Of a stretch of DNA of 64,000 nucleotides, positions 42,001 to 59,200 are shown one piece after another. The stretch is from Ophelia neglecta. Lineage: Eukaryota. Made by a program: the position numbers. The stretch is taken from positions 65,844,001 through 65,908,000 of the forward strand of contig OZ260664.1 in NCBI GenBank assembly GCA_965285935.1, read 5' to 3'. The first letter of the stretch is position 1, and the number at the start of each line of letters is the position of its first letter.

Positions 42001-45000
42001 TCCAATTTTTATTGCAGGCTGTATGATTGGCACCGCCGGCCGTCAGTTCGCGATGATGTTTTTGCAGAGCACTTCATCTCAAGACCCGATAGATGTATAC
42101 TTGAGTAACACGGCTACCGGCGGCCAGACGGCCATGGTGACTTTGGAATACTCCGGACCCTCTGGAGACCGTCTCTCCCTTGTGGGCACTGTATCTTCCC
42201 AGCAGACGACCGTCGTCAGCCTCCCCGGCTACACCCAGGCTTCCGGCACTGCTATAGAAGACAAGGGGGTTATGGTCAATTCTACCGAGGACATAAGCGT
42301 CTTCGTTCTTAACAAGCAGACGGGGAGCTGTGGGGGATTTACCGCCCTACCCATAGACGCCCTTGGTCAGGATTATATGGCTATCTCCGCCTGGCCTATG
42401 AACATCGGCGTTGACCGCTTTACTGAGATTGGCGTGGTTGCCCTCGAGGATAACACCCAGGTCAACATCCAATTCATAGCTGGGAAGGGGGTGACAATAG
42501 ATTACCAGGGACAAACGTATGGCAGTAATGACCCGGACAAATTACTAAAAGTGATTCTCAGTAGAAACCAGACAATGCAGCTGGTGGCCGAACAGTTTGC
42601 GGCAGACGTCACTGGGACCCACATAAGATCTTCGGCACCCGTCGCTGTCTTCAGTGGTGCTCGCACTGTCGTCATTGGAGGCGGTAATTCTGATCACATT
42701 GTAGAACAGATGAGACCCATATCCTCATACGGTAGGTCATTTCTTTACTAATAATCTTAAATATAATAACATATATAATGTCCAGTTAGCGATGTTCGCA
42801 AAGTTGAAAAATAAATTACCCAATAATTAAATGCATTTCTCTTTAAACGTCATGCAGGCACCCAATTTGCGATGGCTCCCTTTCCTGATCAGGGCCGATA
42901 CGGATTCGTGTTGGTAGCGGCTTTGAACGGAACGACCACCAGTGCCAGTGGCAATATGAAGCTCGACGCCAGTTGGAGCTACCCGACAGACCTGCCTGAG
43001 CAAGTCGCCGGTCCCCTCTTCATTACGTCATCACATCCCATTGTACTCGCACAATATGTCTTAAGTCAGAGCGCGAGTAACCGAGGAGGGCCCAGTATGC
43101 TGGTGGTGCCGAGCGTCAACCAATATCAGAATACCTACTCCGTCAGCATTCCCCGAGGAAGTTACCAGTCCTATCTGATGTTTATCATCCCAAGAAACGA
43201 AGACTCTGGGCTGCTAGTCAACGATGTGCAGGTATAAATGTATTTCATTTCATTTAGTTCTATAACCACTAATTCTACTATTTCAGTTTTTATTTCGTGT
43301 ATAATCGGATACTTGTCACTAACTATGGTTATATAGCGCATGTACATCCCCGCCGACTGATAATGAAGTGGCAGGGTATGATGTTCATCGAAACTGTTGA
43401 GTCGGTTGATTTAAACAAACTTAGTGTGTGAACCTTTACCTAGATTGGACCATATTTCGCATACTCCGCTAACTAAAGGTGATAAGCAATAATTAAGAAA
43501 TAAATTAGGGCCTAACTATATGCTTCCCGTTTGTTTAAATGGCAAAATATGTGCACTATTTCTAGATTACTGGCGTTATATGGGAAGAGGTCCCAAACTC
43601 CTCGCCCCCTATGTGGGCTGGCCACTCCGAGCTTTCCGGGTCGGATTTCGTGGTCGTGAGGCACAAAGACTCCTCGGTCAAGTTTGGAGCTTATATTTTC
43701 TCCAGGGAAGTAAGATCGGAAGGGACAGACACGACCTGCGCAGTAGTCTATCAAGCTGGACCTTGCTTTGAATTCGGCGTCGTAAGTATATAGTCATATT
43801 GATGGATCACTGCAATTATCATATGTCAAATAGAAACCGATAGAATTGTTTAAGATGCTCGTTGTGATTTAGTTTGAAATAACTTCGTACGTGTACTTAG
43901 AAATGACGAAGAAATTATATTTTTGTTAGATATGTTTATTTATATATGACATTTTATGGTAGCCTATTTCTTTCCAGGAAACACCAACATCCCCGAATGC
44001 AGCTTCAACTAGAGCTCCTAGCTTGGCTTCTAGCGTAGTGCCTAGCGTATTTTCAAGTGCATTGTCAAGTGCTATTCCCAACTTATCACCCAGTGCCTCT
44101 CCTAGTATAGGTGCCAGTGTTGTCCCGAGTGTACTTCCAAGTGTAGCCCCGAGTGTGGCACCGAGTGCCGCACCGAGTGTAGTTCCCTCCTCGGCCCGGC
44201 CTCCTAGCGCCAGTCTACCTACATCAGCCCCAGGTCGAGCGGACGACATGGGCACAGGGTTCAGCCTTGTCTTCCCTGGGCTGTCCACTACTGTCGAACC
44301 GGTTAGACTACACATCGGAACGTTAGAGACGGACACTGTAACTGTTACAATCACGTACCAATTAACAGGCGCCACATCGGTTGTATTGACAGAGAGAGAA
44401 GTCCGCAGAAGTTTGGGTGTAATTGTAGAATTGCCGGATGCAGCTAGAAACTTACCAATAAGTGTAAGCTCCAGCGCACCTGTCAGTATCTCAGGGATCA
44501 ACACTGGTTCCTGTAGCGGCTACAAGGCTATACCAGACACCCGCCTCAACAACGAGTACCGCATCACTACCTGGTCCACTATCTCCGGTGGACAGGCAAT
44601 GGTCGGTCTGCTTTCCACCAGGGACACTAATCTTGTAACCGTCAATATCATTGGCTCCGCTGATGACATCATAACTATCAGTGACACCAGCTTCAAGCTT
44701 GGCACCGCCAGCAGGAAGTTTGTATTTGAGATGAGCTCCAACGATTTCATGCCTATCTTCTCCGACGGGGATCTGACTGGTACCTCCGTTCAGACAGAGC
44801 AGGAGGTTGCTGTATTTGGAGGCAACACGGATGCTGTGGTCGGGGAAGACACTTCGCAGACTGGCCAGATGCTTTCCCAGTTTGCTCCGATTACTAGCTG
44901 GGGTACAACATTCATTGTACACAGTGTGCCGGGCAGTCCAAATGTCGGTTACTTTGTCAAGTTCCTGACACTGGAGGCTGACACGGTACTGATTATTCGT

Positions 45001-56288: not shown

Positions 56289-59200
56289 AACAACAAGACC
56301 GCTTTGATCCATAACCGCCTGCCGAGAAGGTAGACATTTCACCTTTTGGAGTAGTATATCCTATCCAACACATCTATCCAACACATCTAGGCAAATGGCA
56401 ATACCAGCACTGTAGGTTCTTATTTTCACAGGTTATTTGGTTATAAATTCCTCAGCTGAACATCCGATCCTAACCCCCGCCTTTACAAGTCTTTCAACGC
56501 ACGCCTTTGAGCGCGTTAGGGAATTGACGTTTTATAAAAGACATTGTTTACAAATAAAATAAAACATATTAATTATTAAACACCACCAATCCGCTGTTTG
56601 CAAAGTGCCGCCATTTGACCAAGGCATGCTACAGGAAGCGACTGGGGCAGATGCTTGTTCAGTGCCAGGAGATAACTACTCTCCACAGTCAGAATGCTTT
56701 TATGCTACGCTCTTCGGACTCACAGCCAAACGAACGGCTTTTTATTGGTTTAAACATATTTATTTATACATAATTTGGATTTTACAAAAGACGAGGGCAT
56801 AACAAAGGTAATTTCCAAATAAATCATTGAGACAATATTTACAAATATGCGTGAGATAAAAATGAGATGATGAAATGAGATGAGGGAGTTACTATACATA
56901 TAATCTATTGACATTACATGCAATTTGTCTGCTGAGTCCAAAAGACCAAGAAACTGGCAAGTAGACCGGGAGCGATATGATGCGACATGATAAGACAATA
57001 ATAGGAATAATCAATATAGTAATCCAGATTCGGGTTACTAAAGAAAATGAAAGACATATTGAAACAAAATATTTGTGAAATAGCCTACTATTTACAACGA
57101 AATATAACAATAGTCACTGGTTTATAAAAAATGATGCACAACCGATAATAACACAAATACATTAGATAATATTGCTTTTTATTCCTTATAATCAAAAGCT
57201 GTTTTGCAACCCTGGCTTCTCCCACGCTTGCTTCCGACTTTACACAAATTTATGCTTTACCTTTCTTGGCCACGAGTAAGTTAAGCATACTAGTAGGCCT
57301 ATGTTTGTTTTTCTTAAGGGGACAACACTTGCGCCGACTCTCGTGCCGACATCCAACCTACCACCCTCTTTTGTTCCAACATCTTCGACAACCACTCTAT
57401 CTACCACTCCGACAACAACAACAACAACAAGTGAGCACGGTTTTCTCTGTATTTTTAGAACGATTTTTGCCTGGATTCCCAATACCTAAACGCTAAATGC
57501 GATGATAGTCTTCGATTTTGATATAAGCCGTGAATTTAATTTAATAATAAAAAGGAGTTGTGTTTCATTTTACCCCAGAATTAAAATGGTTAGCTTACTG
57601 ACGCAGCAAAGCAACAAAATATTCCCTAAAATGTGTTTTACTCGACATTTCACTTTTCCAGCGCTTCCTCCTAAACAGAACGCAGGCCGGCAATATACTG
57701 TACCATATCCCACGAACAAAGAGGTCATTCTGTTTATCTCAACCCAGGTAGAGAACAGCGTGACTGTGGAAGCATTCTACCCCGGCGGCAGTCAACAAAT
57801 AGTGATCATGAAGGGCGCCTCTGGTCGAATTGACCTCCCTGCTAACACGGCGAACAACGCCGTCGTCAAAATTTCGTCCTCGGATGTTATCAGTATTAAT
57901 TCCTTCACATTGGGTTCGTGCCGTTCATACCTTGCTCTGACGTCCAGCAGTCTGGCTACAGAGTATTATGTAATGACTTGGTCGCCATTCAGTGGGTTGG
58001 GTGAGGCATTTTTTACAATTTCCTCATTTGCAAATGACAATGAAATCGATGTGTTCTTTGGCGGCCCATCAAGTCAGACGATCATCTGGGGGTCACAGAA
58101 AGCTCCAGGTGGCTCAACACGCTCGTTATCCCTAGCCGCAGACGAGACCGTTACCTTCACATCCAGTGGAGACATGACTGGCACATACATCGTATCATCA
58201 GATGCTTTAGCCGTGTATGCCGGCAACACGGATATTAGAATCGGGGTCCAGGGTAGCCTGGTGGACGACGTGGGGTCCCAGTTCCCGCCAACCTACACAT
58301 GGGGTAAACACTTTATCATGACCCCAATCCCTGAGAGCCTTACGGGCTACTACGTGAAGGTGCTGGCTCAAGAGGCAAACACATTGATTGCCTTCTTTGG
58401 GCCTATCTACAAATTTGTGACTATTGGCGAAGGTGATTCTATCGTGATAGACGTGTTCGATAACAGTCCATCTAATCTCATCACAAGCCAACCAGTACTT
58501 GTCGTACAGTACTCCAAGACGCCCAGCGCTCCAAGCGAAAACTCTGCACCATCCGCCATACTGGTTCCGCCGGTTGAGCAATGGAAATTCAACTATGATT
58601 TCATTGTACCGGCTACTGCCGGTTTTAAGGCCAGTATAATGATCGCATGTCCTTCGAACAAGCTAACCGGCATTCAGGTGAATAAATTGGGCATTGGATT
58701 GGATGACTGGCTGCCGATACCGGAAACTGATATAGTCACCAAATCTATACGCGCTCCAGATATTTTCTACAACGTCGAGCACCTGGACGAAATTGAAATT
58801 GGGGTGTTTGTCTACGGAACGCGAAGAAACGACTGCTCTTTCGGATTCCCCGCCGGAATGAGTCTCTTCGATCTGACCAGTCTGGATGTAAGTAGTCAGA
58901 AAATGCACAGATATATCAATACTTGAAGGCGAAAGAACCAGAAGTAGTATAGAACTTTAAAATCGCACTTAAATTTCATATATGACCTGCCGATACGGTA
59001 TCAAAATAAAAATGCTTCTGTTCGTTTCAAAGTGCCATAGGCCTATCGCAAACTGCATATTAATATTTAGTCAATAATATTTTTAGTACGAGACGACCAC
59101 TTCGGAAGCATCAACTACCACCGAGACAACTACCACTACCACTGAACTACCAGAGGAACAAGGTAAATGTCCCTAACGTTTTGTATTGCTTTAGCCTATA

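What the first reader, a model, noticed from the sequence alone, without database searches (positions are those of the whole stretch)
42018..58887. Co-varying cysteine pairs define domain subtypes and predict added disulfides
Seen: D2-D7 each have a Cys at two positions where D1 has none. First site: GSCGGF, GSCSGY, GSCSSY, GSCSAY, DSCDGY, GSCRSY versus D1 FSSDGF. Second site: TCAVVYQAG, SCAYGFPAG, DCAFAFPAG, DCSFAFPGG, NCAYAFAAG, DCSFGFPAG versus D1 ESYGLPAG. Only D2 and D6 have a second pair at the domain termini (GCMIG...AGPCF; GGCQR...AGTCL). Inference: a disulfide joining residues about 300 aa apart in D2-D7, and a second one clamping the N- and C-termini in D2 and D6, as might suit mechanically loaded or protease-resistant modules.
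Basis: partly seen in the sequence, partly recalled or inferred. Interest (0 to 1): 0.65.

Follow-up and report, generated by a model that had tools for sequence, protein, structure and literature searches.

The report
Cysteine-pair subtypes of tandem FCGBP_N domains
A mucin-like animal gene carries seven copies of the FCGBP N-terminal domain that fall into three old subtypes with zero, one or two conserved cysteine pairs, which probably form stabilising disulfide bonds, though the bond geometry could not be measured here.

Summary
All 18 quoted motifs are present, once each, at the stated places.

The seven "domains" are copies of Pfam PF17517 (IgGFc_binding, also called FCGBP_N). They are joined by Pro/Ser/Val/Thr mucin-like linkers in one intron-bearing gene model at about 39.4-58.9 kb.

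The cysteine patterns are family-wide subtypes. In 143 aligned domains from the window and 127 database proteins:
- both sites are Cys in 55 rows
- neither site is Cys in 82 rows
- only site 1 is Cys in 6 rows
- only site 2 is Cys in 0 rows

A tree built without the Cys columns gives a one-pair clade holding D3, D4, D5 and D7. A two-pair clade holding D2 is its sister. D1 sits among Cys-less relatives. D6 is too fragmented for the tree and is assigned to the two-pair type by its four cysteines.

The pair therefore looks like a single ancient gain. Only 3 independent contrasts exist, so "covariation" cannot be shown statistically.

Disulfides remain the best reading, on Cys parity, conservation and the secretory context. 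The decisive distance test could not be run. The AF2 models are confident (pLDDT 95.9 and 93.0), but the tools expose no coordinates. No solved structure of this fold was found. The mechanical-clamp function is speculative.

The parts
39381..40463 (+). D1, main exon (open frame; true exon start uncertain, probably near 39430). Subtype C: Ser at site 1 (39747-49). Own cysteines at ORF residues 307 and 320.
   Evidence: PF17517 E=8.4e-47. Cys positions. Groups with Cys-less relatives on the tree. The top 8 listed exon-level blastp hits are all type C.
40863..41120 (+). D1, last exon (open frame). Holds ESYGLPAG with Glu at site 2 (41019-21).
   Evidence: Motif located. Of the 8 listed hits, 6 are type C and 2 are untyped. 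No Pfam hit on this short piece.
41290..41704 (+). Linker 1, a Pro/Ser/Val/Ala-rich repeat. Ends at donor G|gtagg (phase 1).
   Evidence: ORF translation. Tandem repeats of 12 and 36 bp at 41410-41600. Pfam PT repeat E=1.7e-07. Donor read.
42018..43782 (+). D2, three exons (about 42018-42750, 42830-43237 and 43570-43782; inner splice sites not fixed). Subtype B, four Cys: 42020-22, 42329-31, 43737-39, 43764-66.
   Evidence: PF17517 on two of the three pieces. Acceptor ttattgcag and donor gtaagt. First exon sits inside the type-B clade. The best hit of each of the three exons is type B.
43977..44232 (+). Linker 2 (Pro/Ser-rich), continuous in frame with D3.
   Evidence: Acceptor ctttccag read. 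Single 1407-aa open frame 43963-48186.
44233..45486 (+). D3, single exon, 418 aa. Subtype A: its only cysteines are residues 94 and 404 (44512-14, 45442-44).
45487..46920 (+). Linker 3, a long VPSVVPS-type mucin-like linker. Includes a 138-bp unit repeated 6.5 times (45743-46639, 94% matches).
46921..48165 (+). D4, single exon, 415 aa. Subtype A: its only cysteines are residues 94 and 400 (47200-02, 48118-20). This is the domain that was modelled.
   Evidence: PF17517 best stretch spans residues 99-394 of the domain. AF2 pLDDT 95.9, pTM 0.93. Sister to P0001, support 98.
48322..49060 (+). Linker 4, two Pro/Ser/Val- and Thr/Ser-rich open frames. Ends at donor G|gtaaat (phase 1).
   Evidence: Weak PT repeat match.
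49302..50826 (+). D5, three exons (49302-49468, 49585-50414 and about 50570-50826). Subtype A: site 1 at 49696-98, site 2 at 50779-81, plus a third Cys (AACFITT) that is not conserved.
   Evidence: PF17517. Splice sites. Exon 2 lies in the clade with D3 and D4. The third Cys is Val in the 64%-identical P0007.
51103..51236 (+). Linker 5 (Thr/Pro/Ser-rich). Ends at donor G|gtaagt (phase 1).
51358..55259 (+). D6, about eight short exons (about 51358-51497, 51989-52135, 52335-52466, 52975-53154, 53880-54017, 54193-54336, 54547-54699, 55047-55259). Subtype B, four Cys: 51363-65, 52371-73, 55215-17, 55242-44.
   Evidence: Exon-by-exon tblastn against type-B relative P0030 covers residues 2-423, apart from one exon. 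PF17517 on three pieces. The top hit is type B for 4 of 7 exons tested. Splice ends.
57280..57430 (+). Linker 6 (Thr/Ser/Pro-rich), with a donor near 57430.
57662..58881 (+). D7, single exon. Subtype A: Cys at 57919-21 and 58834-36, plus a third Cys (domain residue 324) that is not conserved.
   Evidence: PF17517 E=2.5e-39. Cys positions. Sister to P0009, support 100, and P0009 has only two Cys.

Best explanation
The region encodes one secreted, mucin-like protein of a non-human animal. It contains seven FCGBP_N (Pfam PF17517, IgGFc_binding) domains of about 400-420 aa, strung on Pro/Ser/Thr/Val linkers that are probably O-glycosylated.

The domains belong to three old paralogous subtypes of this family:
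- Type C (D1) has no Cys at the two sites. It has Ser and Glu there, and Glu is the commonest residue at site 2 in the family.
- Type A (D3, D4, D5, D7) has one long-range pair. The first Cys is the residue just before the first position of the Pfam model. The second lies 6 residues after its last position.
- Type B (D2, D6) has the same pair plus a second one. Its N-terminal Cys sits 6 residues before the first conserved G-x-x-F strand. Its C-terminal Cys sits 2 residues after the conserved P-A-G.

The most likely chemistry is two nested intradomain disulfides: 94-400 (D4 numbering) in types A and B, and 2-409 in type B only. These would staple the flanks of the beta-rich fold together.

What is shown: family membership, the subtype clades, the conservation of the cysteines, Cys parity, and a confident all-beta model in which each of the two cysteines opens a strand directly after a hairpin turn.

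What is inferred: secretion, actual bond formation and the pairing scheme.

What is speculative: any mechanical or anti-protease role.
For: Family. PF17517 matches above Pfam's gathering cut-off occur on pieces of all seven copies: 7 of 12 pieces and 2 of 6. The family is large, with 3680 representatives at E<=1e-3.

Co-occurrence. Of 143 aligned domains, 55 have both Cys, 82 neither, 6 site 1 only and 0 site 2 only. With +/-2-3-residue windows the counts are 55, 81, 6 and 1.

Subtypes are clades on a FastTree built without the Cys columns:
- Type-A clade: 31 rows, support 99.
- Type-B clade: 25 rows, support 97.
- The two are sisters: 56 rows, support 88.
- D3, D4, D5 (exon 2) and D7 fall in A. 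D2 (exon 1) falls in B. D1 (exon 1) falls among Cys-less rows.
- D6 is not on the tree. Its four Cys line up with those of type-B relative P0030 exon by exon.

Conservation. 55 of the 56 rows in the A+B clade are labelled as carrying the pair. Identity to D4 among the aligned single-domain proteins is mostly 23-34%.

Parity:
- Type A has exactly 2 Cys in 21 of 29 rows. D3 and D4 have only these two.
- Type B with a complete N-terminus has exactly 4 Cys in 7 of 7 rows.
- Type B with the N-terminus missing has 3 Cys in 17 of 19 rows.

Terminal pair. Every row with the C-terminal Cys and a visible N-terminus also has the N-terminal Cys (9 of 9; 0 rows have the C-terminal Cys alone).

Models:
- D4: pLDDT 95.9, pTM 0.93. 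C94 directly precedes strand 95-99, after the turn of hairpin 76-90/95-99. C400 opens strand 400-405, after the turn of hairpin 388-396/400-405.
- Type-B relative P0030: pLDDT 93.0. It shows the same placement for C111 and C413, and C422 is a beta-bridge residue.

Extracellular context:
- The linkers are Pro/Ser/Thr/Val repeats.
- Relatives combine the domain with ZP, VWD, TSP1, EGF and collagen modules.
- Lang et al. 2016 (PMC4948705, passages read) consider FCGBP_N proteins likely to be secreted.
Against: - No distance was measured. The tools return no coordinates, and no solved structure of the fold was found. Sequence searches of the PDB gave nothing below E=0.075. Foldseek gave no TM-score above 0.22.
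- The association is phylogenetically one event. It needs 3 changes on the tree and offers only 3 independent contrasts, which have no power.
- Site-1 Cys occurs without site-2 Cys in 6 rows. Nine rows have a Cys in the N-terminal window without a C-terminal Cys.
- D5 and D7 have an odd number of cysteines.
- In the P0030 model the N-terminal Cys10 lies in the first ten-residue block, with mean pLDDT 55, so it is not confidently placed.
- My mean-field coupling analysis on the 143 rows gave no signal. The 94-400 pair ranked 1894 of 83845, and the top of the list was gap artefacts.
- No signal peptide or first exon was identified.
- Whether all seven domains are one transcript is inferred from strand, linkers and intron phases only.
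Confidence: 0.7

Rival explanations
1. The cysteines are lineage markers of two paralogue clades and do not bond to each other. They are free thiols, or they pair between domains or between molecules, giving mucin-type covalent multimerisation.
For: The association reduces to one ancestral gain, so co-occurrence alone does not require physical pairing. D5 and D7 have odd Cys counts. Site-1 Cys exists alone in 6 rows. Mucin-type proteins use intermolecular disulfides (Lang 2016, PMC4948705, passage in the Introduction).
Against: Both positions are kept in 55 of 56 clade rows at low overall identity. D3 and D4 have exactly two Cys, and type B has exactly four. Both cysteines sit at strand starts inside a confidently folded core, not in linkers. 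The extra cysteines of D5 and D7 are not conserved in their closest relatives. Recombinant human FCGBP N1-N2 ran as a monomer under non-reducing conditions (PMC11796319, passage read), although that domain was not typed here.
Confidence: 0.15
2. In type B the four cysteines pair differently from the nested scheme, for example N-terminal Cys with site 1 and site 2 with the C-terminal Cys only 9 residues away.
For: Site 2 and the C-terminal Cys are 9 residues apart (413 and 422 in P0030), which is a common local loop size. The family has another tight local pair 9 residues apart, at D4 positions 200 and 209, present together in 28 rows and singly in 1. Distances were not measurable.
Against: Type A keeps site 1 and site 2 without the terminal cysteines (29 rows), and it is sister to type B. 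The simplest history is an existing 94-400 bond with a second pair added. The terminal cysteines always appear together where both ends are visible (9 of 9).
Confidence: 0.1
3. The disulfides exist and have a graded mechanical role. The N-to-C clamp shields D2 and D6 completely from tensile unfolding. The 94-400 bond shields about three quarters of D3, D4, D5 and D7. D1 is extensible.
For: The topology fits. The domains are in series between extended linkers, and the type-B cysteines lie within about 6 residues of both domain ends. A documented analogue is the VWF A1 core. [quoted passage not shown]
Against: There is no evidence on tissue, load or function. Ordinary extracellular stabilisation explains the same data. 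The function of FCGBP_N is unknown even in human FCGBP (PMC11796319, passages read).
Confidence: 0.15

Closest known systems
FCGBP_N / IgGFc_binding domain (Pfam PF17517), first described as the N-terminal domain of vertebrate FCGBP (Lang et al. 2016, PMC4948705)
   Same: All seven copies match the Pfam model. The family context is secreted or extracellular. The paper notes that in invertebrates the domain occurs with varied architectures, usually without VWD domains.
   Different: Here the domain is repeated seven times and alternates with PTS-like linkers, rather than standing once at the N-terminus. No VWD, C8 or TIL module was found in the pieces scanned, so this is not an FCGBP orthologue. 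The Pfam boundaries (D4 residues 99-394) leave out about 95 N-terminal and 20 C-terminal residues that AF2 models as ordered, and with them both cysteines. The passages I read in that paper do not mention cysteines within FCGBP_N.
Multi-copy FCGBP_N proteins in the protein library (P0003: 6 copies plus ZP-N and ZP-C; P0012: 10 copies; P0004: 3 copies)
   Same: These are tandem arrays of the same domain in large extracellular proteins.
   Different: All of their copies that entered my alignment are the Cys-less type C. The window's array mixes types C, B and A in one gene.
Unnamed single-exon relatives P0001, P0007, P0009 (type A) and P0030, P0025, P0123 (type B)
   Same: Identities are 50% (P0001 to D4), 64% (P0007 to D5 exon 2) and 51% (P0009 to D7). 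They show the same Cys patterns. Many rows end in V-S just after the domain, as translated read-through of a GTxAGx donor would give, and P0030 aligns into the window's intron sequence just upstream of D6's first exon.
VWF A1 domain with its long-range N-to-C disulfide (functional analogue only)
   Same: A domain set between O-glycosylated linkers, with cysteines near both termini (PMC9084892, abstract in the listing).
   Different: The fold and family are unrelated. Bond formation and mechanical load are not shown here.

Membership tests
Pfam PF17517 IgGFc_binding (FCGBP_N) | Match to the curated profile above the gathering score (25.6 bits) | tested here: met
   D1 160.3 bits. D2 92.9 and 54.0. 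D3 plus D4 together 264.3. D5 118.3. D6 pieces 39.8, 42.4 and 43.4. D7 135.8.
Pfam PF17517 IgGFc_binding (FCGBP_N) | Reciprocal similarity to many family members over the whole domain | tested here: met
   D4 finds 3680 representatives at E<=1e-3 and 69 at E<=1e-30. All 22 of 22 hits scanned carry PF17517.
FCGBP proper / gel-forming mucins | VWD-C8-TIL units next to the N-terminal domain | tested here: not met
   No VWD, C8 or TIL match in any of the 18 open-frame pieces scanned between 39.4 and 58.9 kb. Exons outside the scanned pieces, and sequence beyond the window, were not examined.
Mucin-like (PTS-linker) secreted proteins | Repetitive Pro/Thr/Ser-rich regions between folded domains | tested here: met
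   Six linkers are visible in translation. Tandem DNA repeats include 138 bp x 6.5. Pfam PT repeat E=1.7e-07. O-glycosylation itself was not tested.
Mucin-like (PTS-linker) secreted proteins | Signal peptide / entry into the secretory pathway | tested here: inconclusive
   No convincing first exon with a signal peptide was found among ATG-started frames at 37.8-39.5 kb. No signal-peptide predictor was available.
Disulfide-stapled domain subtypes (types A and B of FCGBP_N, defined here) | Cys at both site 1 and site 2; type B also has Cys at -6 from G-x-x-F and +2 from P-A-G | tested here: met
   for the window. 55 database and window rows carry the pair, and 26 of them carry the C-terminal Cys as well.
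Disulfide-stapled domain subtypes (types A and B of FCGBP_N, defined here) | The paired cysteines lie within bonding distance in the fold | not testable with these tools
   Models m514f2ce4384a and m2dda5fdc2410 are confident, but coordinates are not returned and are not in /data. No solved homologue was found.
Force-shielding N-to-C disulfide clamp (VWF A1-like, by analogy) | The domain bears tensile load, and the clamp prevents unfolding | not testable with these tools
   Only the topology is seen (cysteines near both ends, linkers on both sides). The analogy rests on the abstract of PMC9084892.

The most novel reading that the evidence does not exclude
One mucin-like protein combines three grades of covalent clamping of the same fold in series: unclamped (D1), core-clamped 94-400 (D3, D4, D5, D7) and fully N-to-C clamped (D2, D6). 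This would give it a built-in hierarchy of extensible and inextensible modules. That arrangement would be comparable in logic to VWF A1/A2/A3, as I recall it; only A1's clamp was checked here. It would have evolved independently in the structurally unsolved FCGBP_N fold. Because D4, D5 and D7 each have their own closest relative elsewhere, the arrangement would be conserved rather than accidental.
Probability: 0.12. Interest if true: 0.6.

Novelty: new variant of a known kind. Interest (0 to 1): 0.3.

Why it matters
FCGBP_N is a widespread domain of animals and gliding bacteria. Its function is unknown, and I could find no solved structure for it.

Three points would help anyone who wants to express, crystallise or pull on this domain:
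- The family splits into Cys-less, one-pair and two-pair lineages.
- The curated Pfam boundaries cut off both conserved cysteines.
- The full fold is about 415 residues, not about 300. This gives correct construct boundaries and tells which relatives need oxidising expression.

If the bonds form as inferred, the array is a natural series of differently stapled copies of one fold. That would be a convenient system for studying how long-range disulfides tune the stability or extensibility of mucus and adhesive proteins.

Otherwise it is an ordinary case of extracellular domains stabilised by disulfides.

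Tried and rejected
1. Sequence search of the PDB with D4 and with the 93-row profile. Nothing below E=0.075.
2. Foldseek of the D4 model against the PDB. There were 50 matches at E<=0.001, but every TM-score was 0.22 or less. No solved fold is available from which to read a disulfide.
3. Looking for model coordinates in /data.
4. Mean-field direct-coupling analysis on the 143-row alignment (Neff 124). The top pairs were N-terminal gap artefacts, and 94-400 ranked 1894 of 83845. 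The alignment is too shallow, so I rejected this as evidence either way.
5. Enlarging the alignment with the search for homologous proteins. This gave 2 hits with D4 and 4 hits with the profile, so it added no depth.
6. A phylogenetically independent contrast test. There were only 3 contrasts, so it has no power.
7. The listing of cluster members for names and sources of ten relatives. The shared database was switched off. The question of which organisms carry types A and B was left open.
8. The isolated beta-bridge residues at D4 positions 5 and 409 (P0030 positions 13 and 422) as a hint that the termini touch. The bridge partners are not reported, so I did not use this.
9. The idea that D1's two cysteines (D4 positions 280 and 293) are a recurrent family pair. 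Both occur together in only 2 rows, so I rejected it.
10. Complex prediction and the protein-atlas search were not used. The first scores only the binding of separate chains. The second is not meant for known families or for taxonomy.

Full report
**What is there**

The window is intron-bearing eukaryotic DNA with no N. G+C rises from about 36% to 44-52% over the gene in question. I do not take the contig for human, and no tool flagged it as such.

Between about 39.4 and 58.9 kb, the + strand holds seven copies of one domain. Pfam assigns every copy to PF17517, IgGFc_binding. This is the FCGBP_N domain of Lang et al. 2016. The match was found on 7 of 12 open-frame pieces and on 2 of 6. A tblastn of D4 against the window finds these seven copies and no others.

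The copies are separated by Pro/Ser/Val/Thr-rich repetitive linkers. One linker contains a 138-bp unit repeated 6.5 times at 45743-46639.

Exon structure differs between copies:
- D3, D4 and D7 are each a single exon. D3, the long linker and D4 share one 1407-codon open frame.
- D1 has at least two exons.
- D2 has three exons and D5 has three.
- D6 has about eight short exons.

The linker-to-domain introns of D2, D5 and D6 are all phase 1, each with a clean polypyrimidine-AG acceptor. D2 and D6 end at gtaagt donors. These features, the common strand and the alternation with linkers argue for one gene. No transcript evidence was available, and I found no first exon with a signal peptide.

D1, D2, D5 and D6 were never assembled. 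Only D3, D4 and D7 were analysed as whole domains.

**Check of the observation**

- D3 (418 aa) has cysteines only at residues 94 and 404.
- D4 (415 aa) has cysteines only at residues 94 and 400.
- D7 has cysteines at residues 81 and 386, plus a third at 324.
- D2 and D6 carry a further Cys one or two codons into their first exon, and another two residues after the conserved A-G. No other copy has these.

- D1 has two cysteines of its own.
- D5 has a third Cys. It is Val in a 64%-identical relative.
- D7's third Cys is absent from its 51%-identical relative P0009, which has only two Cys.

**The family view**

D4 finds 3680 cluster representatives at E<=1e-3, and the best 150 were returned. A profile built from D3, D4 and D7 found 200 domain instances in the 151 proteins held. 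Of these, 140 instances from 127 proteins span both sites. With the three window domains this gave a 143-row alignment.

Co-occurrence at the two sites:

| Method | Both Cys | Neither | Site 1 only | Site 2 only |
|---|---|---|---|---|
| Strict columns | 55 | 82 | 6 | 0 |
| Windows of +/-2-3 residues | 55 | 81 | 6 | 1 |

The commonest residue at site 2 is Glu (59 rows), as in D1.

The C-terminal Cys occurs in 30 rows, and 26 of those also have the main pair. Among the 67 rows whose N-terminal segment is present, 9 have both terminal cysteines, none has the C-terminal Cys alone, and 9 have a Cys in the N-terminal window alone.

Cys counts inside the domain fit nested pairs:
- Type A has exactly 2 Cys in 21 of 29 rows.
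- Type B with an intact N-terminus has exactly 4 Cys in 7 of 7 rows.
- Type B with a truncated N-terminus has 3 Cys in 17 of 19 rows.

**Are these subtypes or coincidence?**

I built a FastTree of 146 rows. These were the 143 rows plus the largest single exon of each of D1, D2 and D5, added as fragments. All Cys columns and both termini were removed. The tree gives:
- a type-A clade of 31 rows (support 99) containing D3, D4, D5 exon 2 and D7
- a type-B clade of 25 rows (support 97) containing D2 exon 1
- the two clades as sisters (56 rows, support 88)
- D1 exon 1 in a small Cys-less group beside them

D4 pairs with P0001 (support 98) and D7 pairs with P0009 (support 100). P0007 is 64% identical to D5. 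The individual copies are therefore old and have their own counterparts elsewhere.

D6 is too fragmented for the tree. Its exons align along type-B relative P0030 with all four Cys in register. The top blastp hit is type B for 4 of its 7 exons tested.

The same result also means the pair was gained essentially once. Presence of the pair needs only 3 changes on the tree. Only 3 phylogenetically independent contrasts exist, so the sign test cannot reach significance. What the data show is strong joint conservation, not statistical covariation.

The six rows with only the site-1 Cys are a genuine exception. Five of them (P0032, P0037, P0052, P0058, P0084) form one group inside the Cys-less clade, and the three scanned (P0032, P0052, P0058) carry TSP1 repeats. 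Four of the five have other extra cysteines that could be partners. The sixth, P0034, is a type-A member that lacks site 2.

FastTree has known weaknesses with long branches. Two type-B rows on long or isolated branches (P0049, P0099) fall outside the main clade.

**Structure**

AF2 with the 93-row alignment A1 models D4 with mean pLDDT 95.9 and pTM 0.93. The model is all-beta and ordered from about residue 5 to residue 410.

The Pfam model covers only D4 residues 99-394. The site-1 Cys is the residue immediately before Pfam position 1. The site-2 Cys lies six residues past the last Pfam position. The curated boundaries therefore omit both.

In the model:
- C94 directly precedes strand 95-99, after the turn of the 76-90/95-99 hairpin.
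- C400 opens the last strand, 400-405, after the turn of the 388-396/400-405 hairpin.

It has mean pLDDT 93.0 and cysteines at 10, 111, 413 and 422. C111 and C413 sit exactly as in D4, and C422 is a beta-bridge residue. C10 falls in the first ten-residue block, which has mean pLDDT 55.

The decisive number, the Cys-Cys distance, could not be obtained. The tool returns no coordinates and none are placed in /data. No experimental structure can stand in:
- phmmer and profile searches of the PDB gave nothing better than E=0.075
- the best Foldseek TM-score against the PDB was 0.22

A coupling analysis on the shallow alignment failed.

**Most likely mechanism**

I think the best reading is ordinary but specific. 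This is a secreted, O-glycosylated, mucin-like protein whose FCGBP_N modules come in three ancient versions. Types A and B would carry a long-range disulfide, 94-400 in D4 numbering, that ties the start of the conserved core to its last strand. Type B would add a second, outer disulfide, 2-409, that ties the two chain ends together.

The nested pairing scheme follows from type A being the sister of type B and having only the inner pair. I put about 0.7 on this.

Three rivals remain:
- The cysteines are non-bonded or form intermolecular bonds (about 0.15).
- Type B uses a different pairing scheme (about 0.1).
It has a good analogue in the VWF A1 domain, whose N-to-C disulfide protects the core from force between O-glycosylated linkers (PMC9084892, abstract as shown in the listing). 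There is no direct evidence for it here.

**Comparison with what is known**

The domain family is known. Lang et al. 2016 (PMC4948705, passages read) reported 974 FCGBP_N proteins in vertebrates, invertebrates and bacteria, mostly with the domain at the N-terminus.

The human FCGBP N1 domain has five cysteines, unknown function and no resolved structure. It runs as a monomer without reduction (PMC11796319, passages read).

The window's protein is not an FCGBP orthologue. No VWD, C8 or TIL was found in the 18 pieces scanned.

Tandem arrays of the domain exist elsewhere, for example P0003 with six copies plus a ZP module and P0012 with ten copies. All of their copies that entered my alignment are Cys-less.

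I found no paper describing cysteine-defined subtypes of this domain:
- The search for 'PF17517' returned 1 paper, on mussel genomics.
- The search for 'FCGBP_N' returned only Lang 2016.
- The searches showed nothing relevant in their listings.
- In Lang 2016, the two occurrences of 'cysteine' concern TIL and C8.

Supplementary fig. S5 of Lang 2016 may list similar arrays.

**Verdict**

This is a new variant within a known domain family: disulfide-defined subtypes, mixed in one PTS-linked array. It is of modest interest. Its main practical value is correct domain boundaries and a clear, cheap test.

Noticed in passing
window 47200-48120 (D4), and the same in every copy: Pfam PF17517 covers only D4 residues 99-394. 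AF2 models residues from about 5 to 410 as one ordered all-beta fold. Both conserved cysteines lie just outside the curated boundaries: one residue before the model's first position and six residues after its last.
   Followed up: yes
window 49585-50414 (D5 exon 2) and 57679-58881 (D7): D5 and D7 each have a third cysteine, giving an odd count. D5's third Cys is Val in the 64%-identical P0007. D7's is absent from the 51%-identical P0009. They may be free thiols, or recent changes of no consequence.
   Followed up: partly
window 39381-40463 (D1), ORF residues 307 and 320: D1 lacks the family pair but has two cysteines 13 residues apart (D4 positions 280 and 293). Each position is Cys in some relatives, but both together in only 2 rows including D1, so it is unclear whether they pair.
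   Followed up: partly
family alignment, D4 positions 200 and 209: Cys-less (type C) relatives often have a different, local pair nine residues apart, present together in 28 rows and singly in 1. It is never seen in types A or B. This suggests alternative disulfide solutions in different lineages of the same fold.
   Followed up: partly
window 45743-46639: A 138-bp unit is repeated 6.5 times at 94% identity. It encodes the VPSVVPS-type linker between D3 and D4. The long antisense open frames here (for example 45645-47207) look like by-products of the repeat, not genes.
   Followed up: partly
window 41704/42018, 49060/49302, 51236/51358: The introns between linker and domain in D2, D5 and D6 are all phase 1, and each splits a Gly or Val codon. 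This is consistent with exon shuffling or duplication of whole domain-plus-linker units. D3 and D4 have lost, or never had, these introns.
   Followed up: partly
window 51358-55259 compared with 44233-48165: Intron density differs sharply between copies of the same domain in one gene. D6 has about eight exons, while D3, D4 and D7 have one each.
   Followed up: no
window 1742-3001, 18000-18440, 27831-28844: Upstream neighbours on the + strand are an open frame with two C2 domains (E=1.8e-38), a Sel1-repeat piece and an MFS_1 transporter exon (E=2.6e-23). They are unrelated to the finding.
   Followed up: partly
window 56249-56286: A run of 38 A lies in the long D6-D7 interval. It may be the tail of a retroposed element. 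It was not examined.
   Followed up: no
models of D4 and P0030: Both AF2 models show an isolated beta-bridge residue three residues before the first strand (D4 residue 5, P0030 residue 13) and another at the C-terminal-Cys position (D4 409, P0030 422). These may be partners, which would put the chain ends side by side. The tool does not report bridge partners.
   Followed up: no
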